Assembly: GCF_988242995.1 (NCBI RefSeq)
Contig: NZ_OZ547043.1
Strand: one strand, 5' to 3'
DNA length: 64,000 nucleotides
A program made the position numbers and the translations under genes. Positions 1 to 63,270 of this stretch are shown piece after piece. Each line of letters opens with the position of its first letter. Position 1 is the stretch's first letter. The notes below the pieces were generated by a model, which was given only the letters and a program-made list of their open reading frames with translations, searched no databases and was not told where the DNA came from.

Positions 1-452
1 CGTTTAAGGAGGTTTCAGCAGTAAGCCTGAATGGTGTTGCCGGAGGTAACGGTTTTTGTATCGACAGTTTTGATATTCAGTTCGATAACAAACTCCAGAC
101 ACAGCGTTGTATCGGGACTGGCTCGCCTTATGCAGGAGCAAATATTCCGACTACTTTTACACCGTCCGGTACGGTGACGCTTTCATGGTCTAAAGCCGCG
201 TGGGAAATCTGGAGTAAAACACTGACTGGAGAAACAGTTCCGTTCAGCTTCACGCTTTCGAATGGAGAGGGGGCATACACTTTCAGTTTCCCGAAGGTTC
301 AGGTGTCAGGTGAATGGCCTGATGGGGGTAATAGCGACATTATCCAGGTTCAATTGAGCATTACCGCAGCAGATGAAGCACCTACGATAACCAGAAAAAA
401 AAATTCCCCGGCTGCCGTGATCGCAAAAGCCAGTGCTGAGGCGATTAGTTGA
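1..452 (+). CDS. Phage major tail protein (lambda V-like), 3' fragment; the gene starts upstream of the window
   Basis: Reading frame is open from position 3 to the stop at 450-452; it sits immediately upstream of the G/GT-H-M-L-K-I-J block, as V does in lambda. Identity inferred from position only. Confidence 0.45.
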   Translation, partial: FKEVSAVSLNGVAGGNGFCIDSFDIQFDNKLQTQRCIGTGSPYAGANIPTTFTPSGTVTLSWSKAAWEIWSKTLTGETVPFSFTLSNGEGAYTFSFPKVQVSGEWPDGGNSDIIQVQLSITAADEAPTITRKKNSPAAVIAKASAEAIS

Positions 453-500
453 TTTTCCGTTATTCCTCCTGTGGTACTGCCCTACAGGGGGACGCATTGA

Positions 501-962
501 ATGAGGTTATGGATGTTTATTCTTAATCAGAAAATTATCATTGGTGGAGAACGCTGGTTTACGCCAATGAAGGACTTAAAACCTGTAGACGGGTTAAAAC
601 TGTTGGTGGTAAGCAGCGATAACGATCAGTATCGCTCCCGTAATGCATTAATCCGTCGCCACATTGAGAAAATGGATGCCAGTTTGCACGTCGGAACGAA
701 GGAGTTTGATATTTCAAAGGTTTCCGAGGTGGATTCTGTTGATGATTTACTCATTGATAATGCCGCTCGTTATCTGCTGAAAGACTGGAAAGGGGTTGGT
801 GAACTGGTTAATGGTGTTGAGGTTGCACTGGAATATACGGCAGAACGAGGGATCGCGCTGCTTAAGCAGAATCCAGAGTTGTACTGGCAGATCCTTGCAG
901 AAGCAGCCAGCATCGCCCAGGGTAAAGAGCAGCAGAAGCAGGATACGATAAAAAAGCCATAG
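501..962 (+). CDS. Tail assembly chaperone (lambda G-like)
   Basis: 153-aa ORF directly upstream of the tape measure gene; it ends just after an in-frame A_AAA_AAG slippery heptamer, and the -1 frame continues open into the next ORF (G/GT architecture). Confidence 0.6.
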   Translation: MRLWMFILNQKIIIGGERWFTPMKDLKPVDGLKLLVVSSDNDQYRSRNALIRRHIEKMDASLHVGTKEFDISKVSEVDSVDDLLIDNAARYLLKDWKGVGELVNGVEVALEYTAERGIALLKQNPELYWQILAEAASIAQGKEQQKQDTIKKP

Positions 963-1270
963 CTGCCCAGCGGTGGTTATCGGAGTTCGGGGGAGAAAGG
1001 GGGGAAAAGGCAAGATGGAAGCGAGAAAAACTCAGGTTGCCACCGATACCGGAACCAGAAATAGACCCGGTGCTTAAGGAGTTGTTGTACGCCTATTCGG
1101 TAATATCCCGTGCCCGACGTTATGCTGGAATGGCTGGGGTGCCTTTGCCTTTATCTCTGACAGAGATAAATGAATATTTAGCCACTCATCCGGTATTGAT
1201 TGAGCGCGATGAATTTGAAGCAGTGATCTTTGCACTGGATGACCAGTATTTTCAGGAGCAGTGTGTGTAG
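501..1270 (+). CDS. Tail assembly chaperone GT fusion, predicted product of a programmed -1 ribosomal frameshift
   Basis: The -1 frame is open from 956 through the 77-aa ORF 1037-1270 (which the track starts at TTG); I checked codon by codon for stops between 956 and 1037 and found none. Confidence 0.45.
950..956 (+). other. Putative -1 frameshift slippery heptamer A_AAA_AAG
   Basis: Codons ata-aaa-aag sit in the G frame at 948-956, three codons before the G stop; the heptamer is the same type as the dnaX frameshift site. Confidence 0.5.
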
Positions 1271-1390
1271 TTGTTAATTACGTACACTCTGTTACAGAGA
1301 TGTGATTGTGTCTTTAATTAAATCGATGATGCTCCTGGAGAAAAGCATTGCGTGGCCTCGTAATCGCTATATCTACTATTATGTCGCCTG

Positions 1391-1416
1391 AAACCCACTT
1401 CGCGGTGGGTTTTTTG
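1391..1416 (+). terminator. Terminator-like hairpin plus T-tract about 20 nt upstream of the tape measure start
   Basis: aacccac-ttcgcg-gtgggtt stem-loop followed by TTTTTTG; an AGGAG ribosome-binding site follows before the ATG at 1436. Confidence 0.35.
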
Positions 1417-1435
1417 TTGTCAGGAGTTTTAATAA

Positions 1436-4400
1436 ATGGCAGAGCAAACCTCGCGTCTCGCAATAATTATTGATAGCACTGGAGCGAAAAATAATGCTGA
1501 CAATCTGACCTCCTCATTAGTCAAAATGACGCAGGCTGGGGAAACTGCTGCAAATAGCGCAGGGAAAGTGACTAAGGCAACAGAAGATGAGAAGAACGCG
1601 CTCGCAAAATTAAAAGCAGCTATTGATCCAGTTGGTGCCGCAATTGATACTGTCGGTCGACGCTATTCTGAATTAAAGAAATTTTTCGATAAAGGGCTTA
1701 TTGATAAAGAAGAATATGAATTTCTTGTCCGTAAACTTAATGAAACCACAGAGGAATTGAGCGGGGTTGCGCAAGCGCAGAGAGAAGCCGAGAAGGCCGG
1801 AAAACTTGCTGCCGCCCAGCAGGAAGCGCAGGCTCAGGCCTTTCAAAGAATGCTGGACAAGATCGACCCTCTGGCTGCGGCGCTAAGAAATCTTGAACAA
1901 CAGCATGATGAACTTAATGCTGCGTTTGCATCCGGGAAAATAAATGGTTCTCAGTTTGAGAATTATAGCCGAAAAATACAGGAAACACGGCGAGAGCTTA
2001 CCGGAGAGGCTCAGGCAGAGCGAGAAGCAGCAAAAGCGCATGATGAACAGGTTGTTGCTTTGCAACGTCTGATTGCTCAACTTGATCCTGTCGGAACTGC
2101 TTTTAATCGTCTGGTAGAACAACAGAAACAGCTCAATGAAGCAAAAGCTAAGGGGATGCTTTCTCCTGAAATGTATGAGGAGCTTTCTGGAAAACTTCGT
2201 GCTATGCGGAGTGAGCTTGAGGTTACTCAATCACAATTAAGCAAAACCGGAATGTCGGCAAAACAAACGGCTTTTGCTATGCGCATGTTGCCTGCACAAA
2301 TGACGGATATTGTTGTTGGGTTGTCCACTGGTCAGTCGCCATTTATGGTGTTAATGCAGCAGGGCGGCCAGCTAAAAGATATGTTCGGTGGGATTGGCCC
2401 GGCGATCAAAGGTGTAGGTTCTTATGTGCTGGGATTAATTAATCCTTTTACCCTGGCCGCAGCAGCCGTTGGGGTCTTAGGACTGGCTTACTATAAAGGC
2501 TCTCAGGAGCAGGACGAATTTAATAAATCTCTTATTCTTACCGGAAATCAGTTGGGGACAACCAGCGGGCAATTGGGCGATATAGCTCAACGTGCCGGGA
2601 ATGCGGCTGATTCGACAACTGGTGCTGCGGCGGCAGTATTAAATCAGCTTGTGCGTTCGGGAAAGGTAGCGAGCAGTTCGCTGGAGCAAGTGACGACAGC
2701 GATAGTAAAAACGAGCGAAGTAACAGGAATATCAACCGAACAACTGGTTAATGACTTCAATGAAATTGCAAAGGATCCTGTCAGTGCCATATCAAAACTT
2801 AATGATCAGTACCATTTTCTGACACTTGCGACTTATAACCAGATTAAGGCGCTACAGGATGAAGGGAACCAGCAGGAGGCCGCCCGCATTGCGACAGAAG
2901 AATACTCATCCTCAATGATCCAGCGCACCAACCAGATTAAAGAAAATCTTGGTTATCTTGAGACTGCATGGAAAGCTGTCGCAGACTCCGCAAAATGGGC
3001 ATGGGATTCCATGCTGGATATTGGCCGTGAGGCCTCCCTTGATCAAAAAATCTCAGATGTTCTCCGTCAAATTGATGAAATAGAAAAAAATACCCGACCC
3101 GGAGTTTTCGGGTTAGGTGGCATTGGAGATGGCGGAGCTCAAAATAAAAGGCTGGCACGATTAAAGCAGCAATTGGGCGTACTTCAAGCAGAAAAAATTG
3201 CTCAGGACGTACTAAATTCATCAATAAACGATTACAACAAGCGACAACAGGAAGGAATTGAACTCAGACAGAGAGCAGATGCCTTTTCAAAACAATATCA
3301 GACCCGGGAGCAGCAGAGAGCTAGTGAACTTGCAAAACTGGAAAAGCTAAAGAATCAGTATTCAAAGGAAGAATATAATAATCTTATCGCTCAAATAAAT
3401 GAGCGTTATAAAGATCCAAAGCAACCAAAGGCGAAAGGTTATTCTGATGATGCAGCCCAACGAATGATTGATCATCTGAATCAACAGAATGCGTTACTAA
3501 GTTCACAAGCTGAGTTGACCGTTAAATTAAGTTCCTCTGAACAGGAACTGGTTAAGTGGCGTCAGCGGATTGCCGACCTAGAGTCACGACCATCATCGAA
3601 ATTAACCCAGGATCAGAAATCGCTTCTCTTACACCGGGAAGAAATAACCGCGTTGATGGAGAAAAATGTTGCGATTGAAAAGAATAACAGGCTAATCAAG
3701 GAATCCGCCGAAATAACAGCATGGCGTGATTCATTGCAGGCTTCGATTGATAATCGTCAGCAGGGGTATGATATTCAGATTGCTGGTTATGGGGTTGGCG
3801 ATAAAAATCAGCAACGCCAGCAGGAATTACTGCGGATTGAACATGGATATAACAATCAGCGTCTGCAACTTGAACGTGACTATGCAGATAAATCCCGTGG
3901 AATGTCAGATCATGTTTTTCAAGAGAAAATGCAGGCTCTGAATGATGCTCTGGAACGGGAAAAAGAAATTGTCAGACAGAAAAACGAGCAGCTCGATATT
4001 CAGGCAGGAGACTGGGTTAGTGGTGCCTCCCAGGGATTCAATAACTGGCTGGATGACACTAAGGATATCAGTGAGCAGATAAAATCAACCACGACTCAGA
4101 TGTTTGATGGGATGACCGATGCGCTGGGTGATTTTGTCACGACAGGCAAGGCAAATTTTCGTTCTTTCGCTACTTCCGTGATTTCGGATCTTAGTCGAAT
4201 AGCATTAAAGGCTTCAATTACTGGGATTTTCGACAGCATTAGTAACAGTTCTTCTGGGGGGATTTTAGGAACTATCGGGAGTGCTATTAGTAAATTTATT
4301 CCGAATGCAAAGGGCGGTGTTTATGAGTCTCCGTCATTGAGCACGTATTCGAACGGTATTTATGATTCCCCGCAATTTTTTGCTTTTGCAAAAGGGGCTG

Positions 4401-4669
4401 GTGTTTTTGGTGAGGCTGGACCGGAAGCCATTATGCCATTAACACGAACTTCCGATGGTTCTCTTGGTGTCAGAGCTATTAATAGTAAAAGTGGTAATGG
4501 AGGCGGAGATATTACCTATGCCCCTGTATACCAAATCACTATTCAAAATGACGGCCAGAATGGAGAGATTGGCCCTCAGGCAATAAAAGCACTTATGGGG
4601 ATGGTTGATCAGCGGGTGCAGGGCACTCTGTTAAATATGCGACGTGATGGGGGAATGTTAAGTGGCTAA
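1436..4669 (+). CDS. Phage tail tape measure protein (lambda H-like)
   Basis: 1077-aa ORF, coiled-coil-rich N-terminal half and Gly-rich C-terminal part; sits between G/GT and M. Confidence 0.85.
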
Positions 4670-5000
4670 TACGGAAGAATTTCACTGGTTACCAGAGGAT
4701 GGAATGAAAACAGAAAATAAACCATCGATAAAAACTGTAAGATTTGGCGATGGTTATGAGCAACGAAGTCCAAATGGACTTAATCATTCTCTGCGCGTTT
4801 TCACCTGTGATTTCAAAGTTGAGGCGAATGAACGTGATTCATTTGAAAAATTTTTAGCCCGGCATGAAGGCTATAAATCTTTTTTTTGGCGCCCGCCGGG
4901 TATTAACAGAAAAATCAGAGTGGTGTGTCGAACGTGGTCAGCGACAGAACATATCACCTATACCGATTTTTCGTGTCAGTTTGACGAAGTGGTGATCTGA
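4662..5000 (+). CDS. Minor tail protein M
   Basis: 112 aa; [10 protein letters not shown]...KSFFWRPP motifs resemble lambda gpM as I recall it; overlaps the H stop. Confidence 0.85.
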
Positions 5001-5698
5001 TGCAGGACATACAACAGGAAACACTGAATGAATGCATTCGGGCGGAGCAGTCGGCCAGCGTGGTGCTCTGGGAAATCGACCTGACAGAGGTTGGCGGGGA
5101 TCGCTACTTTTTCTGCAATGAGCAGAATGAAAAAGGTGAGTCTGTCACCTGGCAGAGTCGGCAGTATCAGGCCTATCCCATTCAGGGGAGTGGATTTGAG
5201 ATGAACGGCAAAGGTGCCAGTGCAAGGCCAACACTGAAAGTATCTAACCTGCACGGCATGGTCACCGGGATGGTGGAGGATTTACAGAGTCTGGTCGGCG
5301 GAACAGTCGTCCGGCGTAAGGTCTACGCCCGTTTTCTGGATGCGGTGAACTTCGTCAACGGAAACAGAGACGCCGATCCGGAGCAGGAGGTGATCAGCCG
5401 CTGGCGCATTGAGCAGTGCAGCGAACTGAGCGCGGTGAGTGCCTCTTTTGTACTGTCCACGCCGACGGAAACGGACGGCGCTGTTTTTCCGGGACGTATC
5501 ATGCTGGCCAACACCTGCACCTGGACCTATCGCGGCGATGAGTGCGGTTATCACGGTCCGGCGGTCGCGGATGAATATGACCAGCCAACGTCCGATATCA
5601 CGAAGGATAAATGCAGCAAATGCCTGAGCGGTTGTAAGTTCCGCAATAACGTCGGCAACTTTGGCGGCTTCCTTTCCATTAACAAACTTTCGCAGTAA
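5000..5698 (+). CDS. Minor tail protein L
   Basis: 232 aa, lambda gpL-like with a Cys-rich C-terminus (CTWTYRGDECGY...CSKCLSGCKF); start overlaps the M stop. Confidence 0.85.
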   Translation: MQDIQQETLNECIRAEQSASVVLWEIDLTEVGGDRYFFCNEQNEKGESVTWQSRQYQAYPIQGSGFEMNGKGASARPTLKVSNLHGMVTGMVEDLQSLVGGTVVRRKVYARFLDAVNFVNGNRDADPEQEVISRWRIEQCSELSAVSASFVLSTPTETDGAVFPGRIMLANTCTWTYRGDECGYHGPAVADEYDQPTSDITKDKCSKCLSGCKFRNNVGNFGGFLSINKLSQ

Positions 5699-5702
5699 TC
5701 CC

Positions 5703-6446
5703 ATGACAGAGACAGAATCAGCGATTCTGGCGCACGCCCGGCGATGTGCGCCAGCGGAGTCGTGCGGCTTCGTGGTAAGCACGCCGGAGGGGGAAAGATA
5801 TTTCCCCTGCGTGAATATCTCCGGTGAGCCGGAGGCGTATTTCCGTATGTCGCCGGAAGACTGGCTGCAGGCAGAAATGCAGGGTGAGATTGTGGCGCTG
5901 GTCCACAGCCACCCCGGTGGTCTGCCCTGGCTGAGTGAGGCCGACCGGCGGCTGCAGGTGCAGAGTGATTTGCCGTGGTGGCTGGTCTGCCGGGGGGCGA
6001 TTCATAAGTTCCGCTGTGTGCCGCATCTCACCGGGCGGCGCTTTGAGCACGGGGTGACGGACTGTTACACGCTGTTCCGGGATGCTTATCATCTGGCGGG
6101 GATTGAGATGCCGGATTTTCATCGCGAGGATGACTGGTGGCGTCACGGTCAGAATCTCTATCTGGATAATCTGGAGGCCACAGGGCTGTATCAGGTGCCG
6201 TTGTCATCAGCACAACCGGGCGATGTGCTGCTGTGCTGTTTTGGTTCATCGGTGCCGAATCATGCCGCCATTTACTGTGGTGATGGCGAGCTGCTGCACC
6301 ATATTCCTGAACAACTGAGCAAACGAGAGAGGTATACCGACAAATGGCAGCGACGCACACACTCCCTCTGGCGTCACCGGGCATGGCGCGCATCTGCCTT
6401 TACGGGGATTTACAACGATTTGGTCGCCGCATCGACCTTCGTGTGA
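5703..6446 (+). CDS. Tail assembly protein K (NlpC/P60-JAB-like)
   Basis: Start chosen at the internal ATG (MTETESAILAHARRCAPAESCGF...), in frame with the track ORF 5661-6446 (track start is TTG); contains an HSHPGG motif. Confidence 0.8.
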   Translation: MTETESAILAHARRCAPAESCGFVVSTPEGERYFPCVNISGEPEAYFRMSPEDWLQAEMQGEIVALVHSHPGGLPWLSEADRRLQVQSDLPWWLVCRGAIHKFRCVPHLTGRRFEHGVTDCYTLFRDAYHLAGIEMPDFHREDDWWRHGQNLYLDNLEATGLYQVPLSSAQPGDVLLCCFGSSVPNHAAIYCGDGELLHHIPEQLSKRERYTDKWQRRTHSLWRHRAWRASAFTGIYNDLVAASTFV

Positions 6447-6985
6447 AAACGGGGGCTGAAGCCATCCGGGCGCTGGCCACACAGCTCCCGGCGTTTCGTC
6501 AGAAACTGAGCGACGGCTGGTATCAGGTACGGATTGCCGGGCGTGATACAGGTGAAACGGAATTATCAGCCCGTCTTAATGAACCGCTGGCAAATGGTGC
6601 TGTGATCCATATCGTGCCGCGTCTGGCAGGAGCCAAAAGTGGCGGTGTGTTTCAGGCTGTGCTGGGGGCGGCTGTTATGGCGGTTGCTATATGGATGCCG
6701 GGGGTAGGAATTATGGCGAGTAATCTGCTGTTTTCTCTCGGTGCCAGTATGACGCTTGGCGGTGTTGCACAGATGCTGGCCCCTAAACCCAAAACCCCCC
6801 GCACACAGACAACGGATAACGGCAAACAGAACACCTATTTTTCTTCACTGGATAATATGGTTGCCCAGGGCAATGTTCTGCCCGTTCTGTACGGTGAAAT
6901 GCGCGTGGGATCACGTGTGGTATCTCAGGAGATCAGCACAGCAGATGAAGGTGATGGTGGTCAGGTTGTGGTGATTGGTCGCTGA
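6344..6985 (+). CDS. Tail assembly protein I
   Basis: 213 aa starting MAATHTLPLASPGMARICLYGDLQRFGRR, lambda gpI-like; overlaps the end of K as in lambda. Confidence 0.85.
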   Translation: MAATHTLPLASPGMARICLYGDLQRFGRRIDLRVKTGAEAIRALATQLPAFRQKLSDGWYQVRIAGRDTGETELSARLNEPLANGAVIHIVPRLAGAKSGGVFQAVLGAAVMAVAIWMPGVGIMASNLLFSLGASMTLGGVAQMLAPKPKTPRTQTTDNGKQNTYFSSLDNMVAQGNVLPVLYGEMRVGSRVVSQEISTADEGDGGQVVVIGR

Positions 6986-7004: not shown

Positions 7005-7030
7005 AACCGCCTCCGGGCGGTTTTATCGTT
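7005..7030 (+). terminator. Terminator-like hairpin between I and J
   Basis: aaccgcc-tccg-ggcggtt stem-loop followed by a T-rich run, 16-40 nt upstream of the J start. Confidence 0.3.
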
Positions 7031-7045
7031 TATGGAGCATGACGA

Positions 7046-10000
7046 ATGGGTAAAGGCAGCAGTAAGGGGCATACCCCGCGCGAAGCGAAGGACAACCTGA
7101 AGTCCACGCAGCTGCTGAGTGTGATCGATGCCATCAGCGAAGGGCCGGTTGAAGGTCCGGTGGATGGATTAAAAAGCGTGCTGCTGAACAGTACGCCGGT
7201 GCTGGACAGTGAGGGGAATACCAATATATCCGGCGTCACGGTGGTGTTCCGGGCCGGTGAGCAGGAGCAGACTCCGCCGGAGGGATTTGAATCCTCCGGT
7301 TCCGAGACGGTGCTGGGTACGGAAGTGAAATATGACACGCCGATCACCCGCACCATCACGTCGGCAAACATCGACCGTCTGCGCTTTACCTTCGGTGTGC
7401 AGGCACTGGTGGAAACCACCTCAAAGGGGGACAGGAATCCATCGGAAGTCCGCCTGCTGGTTCAGATACAACGTAACGGTGGCTGGGTGACGGAAAAAGA
7501 CATCACCATTAAGGGTAAAACCACCTCGCAGTATCTGGCCTCAGTGGTGGTGGATAACCTGCCGCCGCGCCCGTTTAATATCCGGATGCGCAGGATGACG
7601 CCGGACAGCACCACAGACCAGCTGCAGAACAAAACGCTCTGGTCGTCATACACCGAAATCATCGATGTGAAACAGTGCTACCCGAACACGGCACTGGTCG
7701 GCGTGCAGGTGGACTCGGAGCAGTTCGGCAGCCAGCAGGTGAGCCGTAATTATCATCTGCGCGGGCGTATTCTGCAGGTGCCGTCGAACTATAACCCGCA
7801 GACGCGGCAATACAGCGGTATCTGGGACGGGACGTTTAAACCGGCATACAGCAACAACATGGCCTGGTGTCTGTGGGATATGCTGACCCATCCGCGCTAC
7901 GGCATGGGGAAGCGTCTCGGTGCGGCGGATGTGGACAAATGGGCGCTGTATGTCATCGGCCAGAATTGCGACCAGTCGGTGCCGGATGGCTTTGGTGGCA
8001 CGGAGCCTCGCATCACCTGTAATGCCTGGCTGACCACGCAGCGCAAGGCGTGGGATGTGCTCAGTGATTTCTGCTCGGCGATGCGCTGTATGCCGGTATG
8101 GAACGGGCAGACGCTGACGTTCGTGCAGGACCGGCCATCGGATAAGGTGTGGACCTATAACCGCAGTAATGTGGTGATGCCGGATGATGGCGCGCCGTTC
8201 CGCTACAGCTTCAGCGCCCTGAAGGACCGTCATAATGCCGTTGAGGTGAACTGGATTGACCCGAATAACGGCTGGGAGACGGCGACAGAGCTTGTGGAGG
8301 ACACGCAGGCCATTGCCCGTTACGGTCGTAACGTCACGAAGATGGATGCCTTTGGCTGTACCAGCCGGGGGCAGGCACACCGCGCCGGGCTGTGGCTGAT
8401 TAAAACAGAACTGCTGGAAACGCAGACCGTGGATTTCAGCGTCGGCGCAGAAGGGCTTCGCCATGTACCGGGTGATGTTATTGAAATCTGCGATGATGAC
8501 TATGCGGGGATCAGCATTGGCGGGCGCGTGCTGGCGGTGAACAGCCAGACCCGGACGCTGACGCTCGACCGTGAAATCACGCTGCCATCCTCCGGTACCA
8601 CGCTGATAAGCCTGGTTGACGGGCAGGGGAGTCCGGTCAGCGTGGAGGTTCAGTCCGTCACCGACGGCGTGAAGGTGAAAGTGAGTCGGGTTCCTGACGG
8701 CGTTGCCGGATACAGCGTGTGGGGGCTGAAGCTGCCGACGCTGCGCCAGCGCCTGTTCCGCTGTGTGAGTATCCGTGAGAACGATGACGGCACGTATGCC
8801 ATCACTGCCGTGCAGCATGTACCGGAAAAAGAAGCCATCGTGGATAACGGGGCGCACTTTGACGGCGACCAGAGCGGCACGGTGAATGGTGTCACGCCGC
8901 CAGCGGTGCAGCACCTGACCGCCGAAGTCACCGCAGACAGCGGGGAATACCAGGTGCTGGCGCGCTGGGATACGCCGAAGGTGGTGAAGGGCGTGAGCTT
9001 TATGCTTCGCCTGACCGTGGCAGCGGATGACGGCAGTGAGCGGCTGGTCAGCACGGCCCGGACGACGGAAACCACATACCGCTTCAGGCAGCTGGCTCTG
9101 GGAAATTACAGTCTGACAGTCCGGGCGGTAAATGCGTGGGGGCAGCAGGGCGATCCGGCGTCGGTATCGTTCCGGATTGCCGCACCGGCAGCGCCATCGC
9201 GGATTGAGCTGACGCCGGGCTATTTTCAGATAACCGCCACGCCGCATCTTGCGGTTTATGATCCGACGGTACAGTTTGAGTTCTGGTTCTCGGAAAATCG
9301 GATTGCGGATATCAGGCAGGTTGAAACCAGCGCGCGTTATCTTGGCACGGCGCTGTACTGGATAGCCGCCAGTATCAATATCAAACCGGGCCATGATTAT
9401 TATTTTTACGTTCGCAGTGTGAACACCGTCGGCAAATCGACATTCGTGGAGGCTGTCGGTCGGGCGAGCGATGATGCGGAAGGTTACCTGGATTTTTTCA
9501 AAGGCAAGATAACCGAATCTCATCTCGGCAAGGAGTTGCTGGAAAAAGTCGACCTGACGGAGGATAACGCCAGCAGACTGGATGAGTTTTCGAAAGAGTG
9601 GAAGGATGCCAACGATAAATGGAATGCCATGTGGGCTGTCAAAATTGAGCAGACCAAAGACGGCAAACATTATGTCGCGGGTATTGGCCTCAGCATGGAG
9701 GATACAGAGGAAGGCAAACTGAGTCAGTTTCTGGTTGCCGCCAATCGTATCGCGTTTATTGACCCGGCAAACGGGAATGAAACGCCGATGTTTGTGGCGC
9801 AGGGCAATCAGATATTCATGAACGAAGTGTTCCTGAAATATCTGACGGCTCCCACCATTACCAGCGGCGGTAATCCTCCGGCATTTTCCCTGACACCGGA
9901 CGGGCGGCTGACGGCGAAAAATGCCGATATCAGCGGTAACGTGAATGCGAACTCCGGGACGCTCAACAACGTCACGATTAACGAGAACTGCCGGGTTCTG

Positions 10001-10460: not shown

Positions 10461-10487
10461 GGCACCAGAAATGGTGCCTTTTTTATT
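10461..10487 (+). terminator. Intrinsic terminator downstream of J
   Basis: ggcacc-agaaat-ggtgcc hairpin followed by TTTTTTATT. Confidence 0.6.
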
Positions 10488-10508: not shown

Positions 10509-11108
10509 ATGCGTAAATTATGTGCTGTTATTCTGTCCGCAGTAGTCTGGCTGGTTGCCGCTGGTACGCCAGCGAGCGCAGCAGAGCATCAGTCCACACT
10601 AAGCGCCGGGTATCTTCAGACCCATACTGATATGCCAGGCAGTGATGACCTGAAGGGCATTAACGTGAAATACCGTTATGAATTTACGGACATGCTGGGG
10701 CTGGTGACGTCATTCAGTTATGCCAATGCCAAAGATGAGCAAAGAACGCATTACAGCGATACCCGCTGGCATGAAGATTCAGTGCGTAACCGCTGGTTCA
10801 GCATGATGGCGGGGCCATCTGTACGCGTGAATGAATGGTTCAGTGCTTATGCGATGGCAGGTGTGGCTTACAGCCGTGTTTCGACGTTCTCCGGGGATTA
10901 TCTCCGCGTAACTGACAACAAGGGGAAAACGCACGATGTGCTGACCGGAAGTGATGACGATCGCCACAGCAACACGTCTCTGGCGTGGGGAGCTGGCGTG
11001 CAGTTTAACCCGACCGAATCCGTGGCCATTGATATTGCTTATGAAGGCTCCGGCAGTGGCGACTGGCGCACTGACGGTTTCATCGTGGGTGTCGGTTATA
11101 AGTTCTGA
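10509..11108 (+). CDS. lom: Lom-like outer membrane beta-barrel protein (Ail/Lom/PagC family)
   Basis: 199 aa with a signal peptide and a C-terminal aromatic residue (…VGVGYKF); lambda lom position between J and stf; bracketed by terminator hairpins. Confidence 0.8.
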   Translation: MRKLCAVILSAVVWLVAAGTPASAAEHQSTLSAGYLQTHTDMPGSDDLKGINVKYRYEFTDMLGLVTSFSYANAKDEQRTHYSDTRWHEDSVRNRWFSMMAGPSVRVNEWFSAYAMAGVAYSRVSTFSGDYLRVTDNKGKTHDVLTGSDDDRHSNTSLAWGAGVQFNPTESVAIDIAYEGSGSGDWRTDGFIVGVGYKF

Positions 11109-11134: not shown

Positions 11135-11162
11135 AGCCCGCCGGTTCAGGCGGGCTTTTTTG
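11135..11162 (+). terminator. Intrinsic terminator downstream of lom
   Basis: agcccgcc-ggttcag-gcgggct hairpin followed by TTTTTTG. Confidence 0.6.
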
Positions 11163-16038: not shown

Positions 16039-16892
16039 GAGCGATCCTCCAGCGCTTTATGCGCACGCCGACGATTTGCCAAAAGCCCATGGGTGGGCGC
16101 AAATACAAATGCTAAAAGAAACAGCAGTGTCTGCGCCACCACGATGATTCCACCTGTCGCGCCGTCCAGAAAGTAACTGACCCACGCGCCGAGGAAACTG
16201 GTTACACTGCCAATAGTTACAGCAATTATGAGCAGGCGGGGAAAACGATCGGTTAACAACCATGCTGTTGCACCGGGAGTCACCACCAGACAGATCACCA
16301 GAAAGGCACCAACCGTTTGCAGCGCCGCAACGGTCGAAACCGACAGCAGGGTGAAGAAGAGGATTTTTAATCTGCCCGGATGCAATCCAATAGCACGAGC
16401 GTGATTCTCGTCGAAAAAGGTCACCATAAGATCTTTCCATTTGAAAAAAAGCACGATGATCGAGAGAATGCCAATGATAGTGAGTTGCAGGATATCCGCC
16501 GGATCGATTGCCAGAATATTGCCCAGGACGATGGTCTGAATGTTCACGGATGTCGGGTTCAATGACACCATAAACAGCCCCAGGCCAAAAAAGGAGGAGA
16601 AGATCAGGCCGATGATGGCATCTTCTTTTAAGCGAGTGCGTTGGTTAAGAAACAGCATGCTGCCCGCTGCCAGTCCGCCGGAAAAGAAGGCTCCCAGAGA
16701 AAACGGAAGCCCCAGCATATATGCCCCCGCAACACCCGGGACAATAGAGTGCGACAGCGCATCGCCAATCAGCGACCAGCCTTTTAGCATCAGATAGCAT
16801 GACAGGAAAGCGCAGAGACCGCCGACCATCGCCGAGACCCACATCGCATTGAGCATATATTCATAGCTGAAGGGTTCCAGTAGCACGTTCAT
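16035..16892 (-). CDS. sitC: Mn/Fe ABC transporter permease SitC
   Basis: 285-aa polytopic membrane protein; overlaps sitB and sitD by 4 nt each. Confidence 0.8.
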
Positions 16893-20910: not shown

Positions 20911-21138
20911 TGAATAAATCCTTTAGTTATTTTATTTGCCTTTTCATCCCCATTTTGGGGAGTGAAAGCATCCTAAAGGAGAAGTTCAGTTAGCCGATAA
21001 ATATCATTTGTTACGCCTTAAGTAAAACCTTAATCAAATAATTCTTCTGAAATGATAATAAGTCTGGTGAATGTATTGAAGATAATACATACAAAATAAA
21101 AATTATACTTTTAATTTGCTATACGTTATTCTGCGCGG

Positions 21139-21248
21139 GTTATATGCCTTTATTGTCACAGATTTTATTTTCTGTTGGGCCATTGCGTTGCTACTGATTT
21201 TCCAACAAATAATGAGACAAGCCCGAACAGTCGTTCGGGCTTTTTTTT
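21139..21248 (+). ncRNA. micC: MicC small regulatory RNA
   Basis: Starts GTTATATGCCTTTATTGTCACAGATTTTATTTTCTGTTGGGCCATTGC and ends in a GCCCGAAC-AGTC-GTTCGGGC hairpin plus T8; matches the MicC sequence I recall and its known location between ompN and ydbK. Confidence 0.8.
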
Positions 21249-21276
21249 AGAATTGGATAATCCTTATCCAGTGCAT

Positions 21277-33049: not shown

Positions 33050-33762
33050 AATAAATATCCTCCGGCATAGCCGGAGGTTTTTCAAATGCGCCTATAAGGC
33101 TCTCTTACCAGCCGCGCCCTAACAGGCGCACACGATCTGACATTTGCATCCAACTTCGTTACTTACGGCCCGTAAACGGGCTGCCCGGATAGGGAATCGA
33201 TAACTGCTCTCCCATTTTATCCTCTTCAAGCTGGTGCTTTATGTAATCCTGTATCTTCGCCGTGTTCTTACCCACTGTATCGACGTAGTACCCTCTGCAC
33301 CAGAACTCCCTGTTCCTGTATTTGAATTTCAAATCACCAAACTGCTCGTAAAGCATCAGACTGCTTTTCCCTTTCAGATATCCCATAAACCCGGATACGC
33401 TCATTTTGGGCGGGATCTCCACAAGCATATGGATATGATCTGCACAGCATTCAGCTTCCAGAATCCGTACGCTTTTCCACTCACACAGCTTTCTCAAAAT
33501 ACTGCCTATTGCTCTACGCTTCTCTCTGTAGAACACCTGTCTTCGGTATTTTGGCGCAAAAACTATGTGATATTTACAGTTCCATCGGGTGTGCGCTAAG
33601 CTCTTTTCGTTCCCCATTGGGACCCCCTTTTGATTTCTTGTTTGACACTTGCAGTTGCCAGACCGCAAAGTGTTTTAACAAATCAAAAGGGGTTTTAATA
33701 ACTGGCTCAAAGCTGAAAGCTTTCCGGAACCCCCAGCCTAGCTGGGGGTTTTCTGTGCACAA
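33050..33762 (-). mobile_element. IS200-type insertion sequence (IS200/IS605 family), copy A
   Basis: ~713-bp unit whose reverse complement matches 62558-63270 along its whole length by eye; encodes a 152-aa HuH Y1 transposase; sits between convergent feaB and tynA. Confidence 0.8.
33159..33617 (-). CDS. tnpA: IS200/IS605-family transposase TnpA (Y1 HuH)
   Basis: 152 aa from MGNEKSLAHTRWNCKYHIVFAPKYRRQVFY; the track ORF has an upstream extension. Confidence 0.85.
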   Translation of the reverse strand: MGNEKSLAHTRWNCKYHIVFAPKYRRQVFYREKRRAIGSILRKLCEWKSVRILEAECCADHIHMLVEIPPKMSVSGFMGYLKGKSSLMLYEQFGDLKFKYRNREFWCRGYYVDTVGKNTAKIQDYIKHQLEEDKMGEQLSIPYPGSPFTGRK

Positions 33763-62559: not shown

Positions 62560-63270
62560 GTGCACAGAAAACCCCCAGCTAGGCTGGGGGTTCCGGAAAG
62601 CTTTCAGCTTTGAGCCAGTTATTAAAACCCCTTTTGATTTGTTAAAACACTTTGCGGTCTGGCAACTGCAAGTGTCAAACAAGAAATCAAAAGGGGGTCC
62701 CAATGGGGAACGAAAAGAGCTTAGCGCACACCCGATGGAACTGTAAATATCACATAGTTTTTGCGCCAAAATACCGAAGACAGGTGTTCTACAGAGAGAA
62801 GCGTAGAGCAATAGGCAGTATTTTGAGAAAGCTGTGTGAGTGGAAAAGCGTACGGATTCTGGAAGCTGAATGCTGTGCAGATTATATCCATATGCTTGTG
62901 GAGATCCCGCCCAAAATGAGCGTATCCGGCTTTATGGGATATCTGAAAGGGAAAAGCAGTCTGATGCTTTACGAGCAGTTTGGTGATTTGAAATTCAAAT
63001 ACAGGAACAGGGAGTTCTGGTGCAGAGGGTACTACGTCGATACAGTGGGTAAGAACACGGCGAAGATACAGGATTACATAAAGCACCAGCTTGAAGAGGA
63101 TAAAATGGGAGAGCAGTTATCGATTCCCTATCCGGGCAGCCCGTTTACGGGCCGTAAGTAACGAAGTTGGATGCAAATGTCAGATCGTGTGCGCCTGTTA
63201 GGGCGCGGCTGGTAAGAGAGCCTTATAGGCGCATTTGAAAAACCTCCGGCTATGCCGGAGGATATTTATT
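62558..63270 (+). mobile_element. IS200-type insertion sequence (IS200/IS605 family), copy B
   Basis: ~713 bp, reverse complement of copy A (33050-33762); the transposases differ at one residue (Tyr vs His in CCAD[Y/H]IHML). Confidence 0.8.
62703..63161 (+). CDS. tnpA: IS200/IS605-family transposase TnpA (Y1 HuH)
   Basis: 152 aa from MGNEKSLAHTRWNCKYHIVFAPKYRRQVFY. Confidence 0.85.
   Translation: MGNEKSLAHTRWNCKYHIVFAPKYRRQVFYREKRRAIGSILRKLCEWKSVRILEAECCADYIHMLVEIPPKMSVSGFMGYLKGKSSLMLYEQFGDLKFKYRNREFWCRGYYVDTVGKNTAKIQDYIKHQLEEDKMGEQLSIPYPGSPFTGRK

What the first reader, a model, noticed from the sequence alone, without database searches (positions are those of the whole stretch)
1391..1416. 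Terminator-like hairpin immediately upstream of the tape measure gene
A GC stem followed by T6 sits 20 nt before the H start inside what should be a continuous late operon. It could act as a partial terminator/attenuator tuning the low stoichiometry of tape measure relative to the major tail protein, or as an RNA processing or stability element.
Basis: inference. Interest (0 to 1): 0.3.

Follow-up and report, generated by a model that had tools for sequence, protein, structure and literature searches.

The report
Conserved terminator hairpin before tape-measure gene
The hairpin is a real, textbook-looking transcription terminator that sits just before the tail tape-measure gene in this E. coli Rac-type prophage and in over 80 related phages, where it marks the fixed downstream edge of a slot that usually holds extra "moron" genes; it is a known kind of element, of modest interest.

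Summary
A GC stem (1394-1398 with 1405-1409, extendable to 1390-1413) is followed by T6 (1410-1415). The tape-measure ATG (1436) lies 20 nt further on.

The window carries a Rac-type lambdoid tail module. The 165-nt gap is 99.4% identical to the K-12 ydaY-ynaA intergenic region and occurs in 1045 of 5426 complete E. coli genomes.

A hairpin plus T-run ends about 15-26 nt before the tape-measure start in relatives from Klebsiella, Erwinia, Pseudomonas and Acinetobacter phages and in about 80 viral contigs. At least 13 different stem sequences all still pair. The distance from the chaperone stop to the tape-measure start ranges from 38 to over 3000 nt.

Larger gaps hold variable accessory genes, including lipoproteins, Zn-ribbon membrane proteins, Ail/Lom, Fic and SocA. 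HK97's gene 15 moron, with its annotated terminator, sits at the same place.

Best reading: this is an intrinsic terminator that forms the fixed 3' border of a moron slot, which is nearly empty here. It would stop ordinary RNA polymerase in the lysogen and be read through by Q-modified polymerase in lytic growth.

No experimental 3'-end data could be found. Interest is low to moderate; it is a new member of a known kind.

The parts
501..962 (+). G-type tail assembly chaperone gene (K-12 ydaY homologue)
   Evidence: ORF. Its position between the tube protein (PF18906) and the tape-measure gene fits a chaperone. It is annotated YdaY in related phages. It has no Pfam hit of its own.
950..956 (+). 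Slippery heptamer A_AAA_AAG for the -1 frameshift that produces the GT fusion
   Evidence: Read directly from the sequence. The -1 frame is open from here to 1270. Its translation aligns with T domains of related phages. It has a weak Phage_TAC_18 hit, below the family cut-off.
956..1270 (+). T extension of the GT chaperone (-1 frame), stop TAG at 1268-1270
1271..1298 (+). Weak promoter-like skeleton at the start of the gap: TTGTTA (1271-1276), 16-nt spacer with TG at 1290-1291, TACAGA (1293-1298)
   Evidence: Own scan and alignment. It occupies the same position and has the same architecture as the conserved extended -10 promoter that follows the T stop in cargo-carrying relatives. It lacks the -7 T and was not reported by the standard promoter scan. 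Function is doubtful.
1302..1391 (+). Small ORF (29 aa from GTG 1302, or 21 aa from ATG 1326) whose stop TGA overlaps the hairpin foot; probably not a gene
   Evidence: It has no Shine-Dalgarno sequence, no Pfam hit, and no similarity to relatives' cargo. Codon 2 varies I/M/I among E. coli copies.
1390..1415 (+). Intrinsic-terminator-type hairpin plus T6: stem 1394-1398 with 1405-1409 (plus 1399.1404), A/U extension 1390-1393 with 1410-1413, T-run 1410-1415
   Evidence: Conserved position and covarying stems are shown.
1416..1435 (+). Tape-measure leader with Shine-Dalgarno AGGAG (1422-1426), related to the family consensus TTTTTTATTGCCCGGAGA
1436..4669 (+). Tail tape-measure protein gene (1077 aa)
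   Evidence: PF06791 1.4e-81, PF09718 3.9e-26, PF24622. The N-terminus [13 protein letters not shown] is shared with relatives.

Best explanation
The hairpin is a Rho-independent (intrinsic) terminator. It is a fixed feature of the junction between the GT tail-assembly chaperone gene and the tape-measure gene in a wide family of siphophages.

It forms the downstream border of a slot that in most relatives holds accessory genes (morons) with their own promoters. In this Rac-type prophage the slot is nearly empty: about 120 nt with a degenerate promoter-like skeleton and no convincing gene.

Proposed mechanism:
- In the lysogen, ordinary sigma-70 RNA polymerase arriving from upstream forms the GC hairpin, pauses on the U-tract and releases. 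Such polymerase could start at a slot promoter, at other prophage-expressed genes such as trkG, or at spurious starts. Release keeps it out of the tape-measure and tail-tip genes.
- After induction, polymerase modified by the phage Q antiterminator reads through, so the late operon stays functionally continuous.

Shown here: the anatomy, the conservation with compensatory stem changes, the slot and its variable cargo, and a Q homologue with a tR'-like terminator in a near-identical phage.

Inferred, not measured: that termination occurs in vivo, and that Q-modified polymerase reads through.
For: - Canonical anatomy: GC stem, 4-6 nt loop, U6, -12.8 kcal/mol.
- A hairpin plus T-run ends 15-26 nt before the tape-measure start in all 53 distinct upstream sequences from 85 sources.
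- Covariance model R1 finds the element on the + strand upstream of the tape-measure gene in every locus that reaches that gene. It also finds it in Pseudomonas and Acinetobacter phages whose T domains are only 35-41% identical.
- At least 13 different stems all pair, including CCCAC/GTGGG, CCCGC/GCGGG, CCTCGC/GCGGGG, CCTCGC/GCGAGG, GCCCGG/CCGGGT, GCCGCG/CGCGGC, CCCGGC/GCCGGG, CCCGAC/GTCGGG, CCCACTC/GAGTGGG and ACCGCC/GGCGGT.
- Pair counting gives 80.4% of cells paired against 76.4% in shuffles. None of 500 shuffles reached the observed values for percent paired, cells with double changes, or covariation score.
- The T-stop to tape-measure gap varies from 38 to 3091 nt and carries 0-6 ORFs in 44 protein clusters. 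These include Zn-ribbon membrane proteins, lipoproteins, Ail/Lom, SocA/Panacea, Fic/DOC and KilA-N.
- One 3' flank class (hairpin plus leader) goes with 11 different cargo sets.
- A conserved extended -10 promoter-like motif follows the T stop in cargo-carrying loci.
- HK97 has the same layout: GT, gene 15 moron, annotated terminator, tape-measure gene. The moron literature describes such units as having their own promoter and terminator for expression from the repressed prophage (PMC3594210).
- Phage vB_EcoS-666R9, 98% identical here, encodes a Q homologue (PF06530 27.4 bits, DUF1133) followed by a tR'-like hairpin.
- Other moron genes of the same genome are also bordered by such hairpins: trkG and lom.
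- Cargo-free relatives have shorter or interrupted T-runs of 4-5, against a mean of 6.2 where the gap is 60 nt or longer.
Against: - There is no direct evidence of termination. The curated K-12 Term-seq tables have no 3' end at 1,4264xx. The region is probably silent there, because a Rho termination region lies just after trkG at 1,425,351.
- Two cargo-free lineages (Erwinia Gungnir39; the L022 group) still keep the hairpin directly after the GT stop. It is therefore not simply brought in by each moron and may serve the late operon itself.
- The slot in this window has no convincing promoter or gene, so there is little local transcription to insulate against.
- Q read-through is inferred from lambda. 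The Q gene lies outside this window.
- The T-run comparison rests on only 4 distinct cargo-free sequences from 2 lineages.
- The sequences compared are related, so the shuffle controls overstate significance.
Confidence: 0.55

Rival explanations
1. Partial terminator or attenuator of the late operon. A fraction of late transcripts ends here even during lytic growth, which lowers mRNA for the tape-measure and tail-tip proteins relative to the tube protein and chaperones.
For: - The hairpin sits exactly where protein demand drops, from tube and G to tape-measure, M, L, K and I.
- It persists in cargo-free relatives right after the GT stop.
- Further hairpins lie at other module borders: after the major capsid gene and before the scaffold gene in 666R9, between I and J and after J in the window, and before the tube gene in Acinetobacter and Pseudomonas relatives and in HK022.
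- SPP1 late gene clusters are likewise delimited by predicted terminators (PMC6316719).
Against: - A Q-type antiterminator is present in the near-identical phage. In lambda, Q-modified polymerase is resistant to intrinsic terminators (established knowledge).
- Lambda and HK022 make similar tails with no hairpin at this junction: T and H overlap in lambda, and the gap is 19 nt in HK022.
- The hairpin before the scaffold and capsid genes would lower capsid mRNA, the opposite of what is needed. Step-down tuning therefore cannot explain the whole set.
Confidence: 0.2
2. RNA stability element. The hairpin acts mainly after transcription as a 3' barrier to exonucleases. The upstream tube-G-GT message outlives the tape-measure part after endonucleolytic cleavage.
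For: - A stable hairpin at the 3' end of a highly expressed block.
- In several relatives hairpins bracket the tube-G-GT block on both sides.
- A hairpin directly follows the major capsid gene.
- This role is compatible with Q read-through.
Against: - An exonuclease barrier does not need a U-tract, yet a T-run of 4-8 is conserved next to the stem in every locus.
- No processing site is known here.
- There are no data.
Confidence: 0.15
3. Terminator of a tiny independent unit in the gap. A weak promoter at 1271-1298 would drive a roughly 110-nt RNA, either a small RNA or a 21-29 aa peptide, that ends at the hairpin: a miniature moron.
For: - The promoter-like skeleton TTGTTA-N16-TGtTACAGA sits where relatives have their cargo promoter.
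- The gap is AT-richer than its flanks, GC 0.39 against 0.45-0.49.
- The gap folds better than shuffles, z = -2.6.
- A small ORF ends at the hairpin.
- The gap is conserved at 95% or more in 1045 E. coli genomes.
Against: - The -10 element lacks the key -7 T, and the standard scan reports no + strand promoter.
- The ORF has no Shine-Dalgarno sequence, and its possible start codons vary among copies.
- There is no Pfam or Rfam hit.
- No ncRNA is annotated in K-12.
- It is absent from the curated K-12 3'-end table and from the RIL-seq-based sRNA predictions that were searchable.
- High conservation among E. coli copies may only reflect recent spread.
Confidence: 0.07
4. Chance hairpin with no function.
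For: The lax terminator pattern is not enriched over shuffles (14 found against 10.9 expected). On its own the hairpin's z-score is only -2.5.
Against: The element sits at the same position with covarying stems in all related loci across at least five host genera.
Confidence: 0.03

Closest known systems
Terminator of the HK97 gene 15 moron (Juhala et al. 2000; annotated 'putative terminator' 8398-8422 in NC_002167)
   Same: It has the same position: after the -1 frameshifted GT chaperone gene and 13-20 nt before the tape-measure start. It has the same form: GACCCGCT-ATCA-AGCGGG followed by T8. The family model R1 matches it at 19.2 bits, E = 0.002. It has the same proposed logic: a moron unit with its own promoter and terminator, expressed from the prophage (PMC3594210).
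   Different: HK97 carries a real cargo gene (gp15, 62 aa) with a promoter; this window has none that is convincing. In the HK97/HK022/lambda group the hairpin is present only where the moron is: HK022 and lambda have none. In the Rac-type family it is present in every member, including cargo-free ones. HK97 did not appear among the T-domain matches, so common descent of the two junctions is not shown.
Intrinsic terminators flanking other lambdoid morons (lom, trkG) and the tR' terminator downstream of Q
   Same: They share the same hairpin plus U-tract design. Examples are the hairpins before and after lom in this window (10461-10478, 11136-11155), after trkG, and after Q in 666R9. All lie inside a Q-dependent late transcription unit.
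   Different: Those terminators belong to identifiable cargo genes or to the Q control region. This one borders an almost empty slot and travels with the tape-measure leader across genera.
Partial terminators or hairpins after abundant structural genes (T7 T-phi after gene 10; the f1/M13 terminator after gene VIII; predicted SPP1 late terminators)
   Same: A hairpin plus U-tract is placed between highly and weakly expressed virion genes. SPP1 has predicted terminators that delimit late gene clusters (PMC6316719). T7 and f1 are cited from general knowledge.
   Different: In those phages no processive antiterminator is involved, and the effect on expression has been measured. Here nothing has been measured and a Q homologue is present.

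Membership tests
Intrinsic (Rho-independent) terminator | GC-rich stem of at least 5 bp with a short loop | tested here: met
   CCCAC(T)/(G)GTGGG with a 4-6 nt loop and 4 G-C pairs. Free energy is -12.8 kcal/mol including the A/U extension.
Intrinsic (Rho-independent) terminator | U-tract immediately 3' of the stem | tested here: met
   T6 at 1410-1415. The run is 4-8 T in all relatives.
Intrinsic (Rho-independent) terminator | Structure conserved by compensatory changes in homologous sites | tested here: met
   At least 13 distinct pairing stems. Pair counts exceed all 500 shuffles for percent paired and for covariation score. The alignment has register problems, and the sequences are related.
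Intrinsic (Rho-independent) terminator | RNA 3' ends mapped at the U-tract in vivo or in vitro | not testable with these tools
   The curated K-12 Term-seq tables show no 3' end at 1,4264xx. Upstream transcription is stopped by Rho at 1,425,351, so this absence is uninformative. Other data sets were not held or contained nothing.
Moron (Juhala/Hendrix sense) | Extra DNA between two genes that are adjacent in related phages | tested here: met
   The gap is 165 nt here. T and H overlap in lambda, the gap is 19 nt in HK022, and it is 38-45 nt in cargo-free family members.
Moron (Juhala/Hendrix sense) | Own terminator | tested here: met
   This hairpin.
Moron (Juhala/Hendrix sense) | Own promoter | tested here: inconclusive
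   Only a weak skeleton is present: TTGTTA-N16-TGtTACAGA. The standard scan does not report it. Relatives have a better extended -10 motif at the same place.
Moron (Juhala/Hendrix sense) | Carries an accessory gene | tested here: not met
   There is only a 21-29 aa ORF with no Shine-Dalgarno sequence and no homologues. Relatives carry 1-6 genes in the slot, and 19 E. coli genomes carry an Ail/Lom gene there. The window's gap is therefore best described as an empty or degenerate moron slot, not a moron.
Moron (Juhala/Hendrix sense) | Base composition different from neighbours | tested here: met
   GC is 0.39 in the gap, 0.45-0.49 in G/T and 0.46 in the tape-measure gene. The stretch is short, so this is weak evidence.
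Regulated attenuator (terminator/antiterminator switch) | Conserved alternative structure that competes with the terminator | tested here: not met
   The minimum-energy and centroid folds keep the terminator intact. The only notable long-range pairing joins anti-SD 1331-1338 to SD 1420-1427 and encloses the hairpin rather than competing with it. It is not significant (5.2% of shuffles as good). It is also not compensated in variants.
Q-dependent late operon (lambda type) | Q antiterminator gene with a terminator downstream of the late promoter | tested here: met
   Shown in the 98%-identical complete phage vB_EcoS-666R9, not in the window itself. The Q homologue scores PF06530 27.4 bits (cut-off 26) plus DUF1133, and a hairpin lies at 16830-16855.
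Known RNA family (Rfam) | Match at gathering score | tested here: not met
   Only a partial sroH terminator match appears, 14.7 bits against a gathering score of 80. Nothing matches here in the whole-window scan.

The most novel reading that the evidence does not exclude
The GT|tape-measure junction of this phage family is a dedicated cargo-exchange slot. A conserved promoter lies right after the chaperone stop. A conserved unit of terminator, AUUGCC and Shine-Dalgarno sequence is fused to the tape-measure leader. This unit has been kept from E. coli to Acinetobacter and Pseudomonas phages, even where the neighbouring proteins are only 35-40% identical. The two conserved flanks act as homology anchors for swapping accessory genes between phages. 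The terminator was there first, which would explain why morons accumulate at this site. Under this reading the window shows the slot in its emptied state.
Probability: 0.3. Interest if true: 0.5.

Novelty: new member of a known kind. Interest (0 to 1): 0.3.

Why it matters
This result explains an apparent oddity, a strong terminator inside a late operon. It is a regular, selected feature of one lineage of temperate siphophages and is tied to a hotspot for accessory and defence genes.

Practical uses:
- The hairpin plus leader is a compact landmark. A 58-position covariance model locates the true tape-measure start and the cargo slot in prophages. It already exposes misplaced start codons in two deposited Acinetobacter phage genomes.
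- It marks where to look for lysogen-expressed genes such as superinfection-exclusion lipoproteins, outer-membrane proteins and toxin-antitoxin parts.

It opens no new class of mechanism. The K-12 copy (ydaY-ynaA intergenic region) offers an easy system to test terminator strength with and without Q.

Tried and rejected
- **Rfam.** Only a sub-threshold match of the terminator part of sroH at E-value threshold, and nothing at this site at gathering score. No known RNA family matches.
- **K-12 experimental data for NC_000913.3 at about 1,426,409-1,426,434.**
  - The Adams 2021 Term-seq and Rho tables have no 3' end there. They do show Rho termination just after trkG and an antisense Rho region in ynaA.
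  - The supplements of the Melamed 2016 RIL-seq paper and of Dar & Sorek 2018 are not held.
  - The RIL-seq-based sRNA prediction paper and the TERMITe supplements contain nothing relevant.
  - The Thomason 2015 transcription-start paper is not held.
  - A literature search for ydaY/ynaA found nothing relevant.
- **Remnant of a degraded cargo gene in the gap.** blastn and tblastx of the gap against all related loci found only the hairpin region. Rejected.
- **Known prophage small RNAs.** The anti-sRNAs of Tree 2014, the Pas sRNAs and svsR lie at the Q/PR' moron site or elsewhere, not at the GT|tape-measure junction. Rejected.
- **Small protein in the gap.** The 21-29 aa ORF has no Shine-Dalgarno sequence, no family hit and a variable start. 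Judged unlikely.
- **Anti-SD pairing (1331-1338 with 1420-1427) that would mask the tape-measure ribosome site.** The duplex is -13.2 kcal/mol, but 5.2% of shuffles do as well, and natural variants in the SD flank are not compensated. Not supported.
- **Bidirectional terminator.** On the - strand the stem is followed by only TTTC. Rejected from the sequence.
- **Alignment quality.** The MAFFT and covariance-model alignments of the hairpin have register shifts between 5-bp and 6-bp stems, which depress the paired percentage. I therefore also listed the stems sequence by sequence.

Full report
**What is in the window.** Bases 1-6500 carry a lambda-like tail module on the + strand:
- the 3' end of a tail tube gene (to 452; PF18906);
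- a G-type chaperone gene (501-962);
- a -1 frame extension open to the stop at 1268-1270;
- a 165-nt non-coding gap (1271-1435);
- a 1077-aa tape-measure gene (1436-4669; PF06791 1.4e-81, PF09718, PF24622);
- then M, L and K.

The G gene ends with ATA AAA AAG CCA TAG. The heptamer A_AAA_AAG (950-956) is a classic -1 slippery site. The -1 frame product aligns with T domains of related phages.

The gap is 99.4% identical to the ydaY-ynaA intergenic region of the Rac prophage of E. coli K-12 (NC_000913.3 1,426,289-1,426,453). It occurs at 95% identity or more in 1045 of 5426 complete E. coli genomes. Nothing is annotated in it. MicC further along the window (21136-21256) fits the Rac locus.

**The observation.** At 1390-1416 the sequence reads G AAA CCCAC TTCGCG GTGGG TTTTTT G.
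- The core stem is 1394-1398 with 1405-1409, and T1399.G1404 can add a pair.
- GAAA can pair with the first T's of the run.
- The T-run is 1410-1415.
- AGGAG lies at 1422-1426 and the ATG at 1436.

The fold of 1386-1418 is -12.8 kcal/mol (z = -2.5). A lax terminator pattern is not enriched in this region (14 found, 10.9 expected). On its own, therefore, the hairpin is only suggestive. Under stricter criteria the first 16 kb hold four + strand hits, all between tail genes: GT|tape-measure, I|J, J|lom and lom|stf. Rfam has nothing for the site.

**Comparative evidence.** DNA searches find only near-identical copies, so I searched with the T domain instead. tblastn found relatives in Klebsiella, Erwinia, Pseudomonas and Acinetobacter phages at 35-67% identity. 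A pattern scan of viral contigs returned 80 more loci.

In every locus that reaches the tape-measure gene, a GC hairpin followed by a T-run ends 15-26 nt before the tape-measure start. A covariance model built from 42 of these sequences finds the element once per locus on the + strand. It also finds it in six further phage loci fetched later.

The stems differ yet still pair. At least 13 versions were seen:
- CCCAC/GTGGG, CCCACC/GGTGGG, CCCACTC/GAGTGGG
- CCCGC/GCGGG, CCCGCT/GGCGGG, CCCGAC/GTCGGG, CCCGGC/GCCGGG
- CCTCGC/GCGGGG, CCTCGC/GCGAGG
- GCCCGG/CCGGGT, GCCGC/GCGGC, GCCGCG/CGCGGC, ACCGCC/GGCGGT
- GGCCCCGCTT/AAGCGGGGCT

. Pair counting on the model alignment gives 80.4% of cells paired against 76.4% in shuffles. 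None of 500 shuffles reaches the observed percent paired, double-change cells or covariation score, and slid controls are lower. The alignment has register shifts between 5-bp and 6-bp stems, and the sequences are related, so these numbers are supportive rather than decisive.

The leader after the T-run (ATTGCCCGGAGA, or ATTGCCTAGAGG in Acinetobacter) is also conserved. In the window it reads GTTGTCAGGAG.

**The junction is an accessory-gene slot.** The distance from the T stop to the tape-measure start ranges from 38 to 3091 nt.
- Gaps of 38-45 nt hold only the hairpin (Erwinia Gungnir39; the L022 group).
- Larger gaps hold one to six ORFs, 122 in all, which fall into 44 clusters.
- The cargo includes a Zn-ribbon membrane protein (30 loci), several lipoproteins, Ail/Lom outer-membrane proteins, SocA/Panacea, Fic/DOC, KilA-N and FtsK-gamma proteins.
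- Deposited annotations agree. Acinetobacter phage TRS1 even has three annotated terminators in the slot.
- Many cargo-carrying loci have a conserved extended -10 promoter-like motif 8 nt after the T stop (cATTGtnt, 16 nt, TGnTAGGAT or TGcTAAcCT). The cargo start codon follows about 35 nt later.
- Some loci also have a first hairpin directly at the T stop.
- One 3' flank class (hairpin plus leader) is found with 11 different cargo sets, and one 5' flank class with 4.
- Within E. coli, 19 genomes carry a relative with an Ail/Lom gene in the slot.

The window's gap has the same skeleton but in degenerate form:
- TTGTTA (1271-1276), a 16-nt spacer with TG, and TACAGA (1293-1298), which lacks the -7 T;
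- about 90 nt with no similarity to any cargo;
- a 21-29 aa ORF with no Shine-Dalgarno sequence and no homologues;
- then the hairpin.

Its GC content is 0.39, against 0.45-0.49 for the flanks.

**Comparison with known phages.** In HK97 the GT gene ends at 8145. The gene 15 moron occupies 8203-8391. A 'putative terminator' is annotated at 8398-8422 (GACCCGCTATCAAGCGGGTTTTTTTT). The tape-measure gene starts at 8435.

The review by Cumby and colleagues states two relevant points. Gene 15, the first element called a moron, lies between the tail assembly chaperone and tape-measure genes. Morons carry their own promoter and terminator for expression from repressed prophages (PMC3594210).

Lambda has overlapping T and H genes, and HK022 a 19-nt gap, so neither has a hairpin. 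The window's hairpin is therefore the positional and formal counterpart of a known moron terminator. The difference is that in the Rac-type family the hairpin is universal, including in cargo-free members. It also travels with the tape-measure leader across genera.

**How it most likely works.** The complete phage vB_EcoS-666R9 is 98% identical in this region. It encodes a Q homologue (PF06530 27.4 bits, just above cut-off, plus DUF1133) followed by a tR'-like hairpin. Strict hairpins also lie after an unknown gene before the holin gene, after trkG, before the scaffold gene, after the major capsid gene and before the tape-measure gene.

By established lambda biology, Q-modified polymerase reads through intrinsic terminators while unmodified polymerase does not. 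The best-supported reading is therefore an insulator. In the lysogen the hairpin stops transcripts that start upstream, whether at a slot promoter, at other prophage-expressed genes or at spurious starts. After induction it is bypassed.

One comparison fits this reading. Loci whose gap is 60 nt or longer have T-runs averaging 6.2, whereas the four distinct cargo-free sequences have 4-5, often interrupted. The sample is small.

Anatomy, conservation, slot, cargo and the Q homologue are shown. Termination and read-through are inferred.

**Rivals.**
- For them: the hairpin persists without cargo, and similar hairpins sit at other module borders. In Acinetobacter and Pseudomonas relatives and in HK022 one precedes the tube gene, so that hairpins bracket the tube-G-GT block.
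- Against them: the Q context argues against strong termination in lytic growth. Lambda and HK022 manage without such a hairpin. The hairpin before the scaffold and capsid genes would act in the wrong direction for step-down tuning.
- A miniature transcription unit (small RNA or peptide) in the gap cannot be excluded, but it has only weak support.
- A predicted pairing between 1331-1338 and the tape-measure Shine-Dalgarno region is no better than 5% of shuffles and is not compensated in variants.

**Experimental data.** I found none for this site. The curated K-12 Term-seq tables list no 3' end at 1,4264xx. The same study lists a Rho termination region at 1,425,351 (+), just after trkG. The ydaY-ynaA region is therefore probably not transcribed in untreated K-12, and the absence of a 3' end is uninformative. 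Other data sets were not held or held nothing.

**Verdict.** The hairpin is a real, selected, intrinsic-terminator-type element. It is best filed as a new member of a known kind, the boundary terminator of a moron slot at the GT|tape-measure junction, as in HK97. The modest added point is that in this phage family the terminator is a universal fixture fused to the tape-measure leader, and here it borders an empty slot. The stoichiometry-tuning interpretation is only partly supported. Interest is low to moderate.

Noticed in passing
window 950-956 and 956-1270: There is a clear -1 frameshift signal (A_AAA_AAG) at the end of the G-type chaperone gene, with an open -1 frame that encodes the T domain. 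In K-12 and most deposited records only ydaY (the G part) or a separate 'hypothetical protein' is annotated, not the GT fusion.
   Followed up: partly
window 7007-7020, 10461-10478, 11136-11155: Three more strict terminator-like hairpins lie on the + strand, all between tail genes (I|J, J|lom, lom|stf). The Ail/Lom gene at 10509-11108 (PF06316, 3e-126) is bracketed by two of them, as expected for a moron.
   Followed up: partly
window 1331-1338 with 1420-1427: The minimum-energy fold of the gap pairs GCUCCUGG with UCAGGAGU, which contains the tape-measure Shine-Dalgarno sequence, and encloses the terminator hairpin. The duplex is -13.2 kcal/mol, but 5.2% of shuffles do as well. Natural variants in the SD flank (CTGGAG, AAGGAG) are not compensated.
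   Followed up: yes
window 21136-21256; 33627-33750 (-); 62570-62693 (+): Rfam finds MicC (124 bits), consistent with the Rac/ompN neighbourhood. It also finds two full-length STnc490 copies (144.6 bits each) in opposite orientation about 29 kb apart.
   Followed up: no
L097 (Acinetobacter phage vB_AbaSI_1) 5120-5170; L096 (phage YC#06) 6100-6150: The deposited tape-measure starts look misplaced. In L097 the annotated GTG (5135) lies inside the terminator hairpin. The conserved N-terminus MTQESRLII begins at the ATG at 5169. In L096 the conserved start MAQESRLVIVID is at 6145, inside a separately annotated CDS.
   Followed up: partly
L048, L057, L066, L067, L075, L047, L049, L039 and others: 8-45 nt after the T stop: A conserved extended -10 promoter-like motif (cATTGtnt, 16 nt, TGnTAGGAT or TGcTAAcCT) directly follows the chaperone stop codon and is shared by loci with different cargo genes. 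Together with the conserved hairpin and leader, this makes the slot look like an exchangeable cassette site.
   Followed up: partly
L056 6253-6778 and 7034-7094: In this viral contig the tape-measure ORF stops after 180 aa. A second copy of the hairpin-plus-leader element precedes a different gene (MPAGTIALTNN...). This suggests a rearranged or decayed prophage, and shows that the element can occur at other junctions.
   Followed up: no
L093 2054-2085, L094 1922-1952, L096 1817-1848, L097 1913-1943, L091 (HK022) 703-761: The hairpin model also matches just upstream of the major tail (tube) gene in Pseudomonas and Acinetobacter relatives and in HK022. In those phages terminator-like hairpins therefore bracket the tube-G-GT block.
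   Followed up: no
K-12 NC_000913.3 1,425,351 (+) and 1,426,769 (-): Supplementary file 2 of Adams et al. 2021 lists a Rho termination region just downstream of trkG and another antisense within ynaA. The first probably keeps the ydaY-ynaA region silent in K-12.
   Followed up: partly
window 1399-1404 compared with other E. coli copies: The window and K-12 have loop TTCGCG, while most other copies have the UUCG tetraloop (CCCAC-TTCG-GTGGG). The T-run varies between 5 and 8 among copies, which looks like homopolymer slippage. One phage has CTTTTT.
   Followed up: partly
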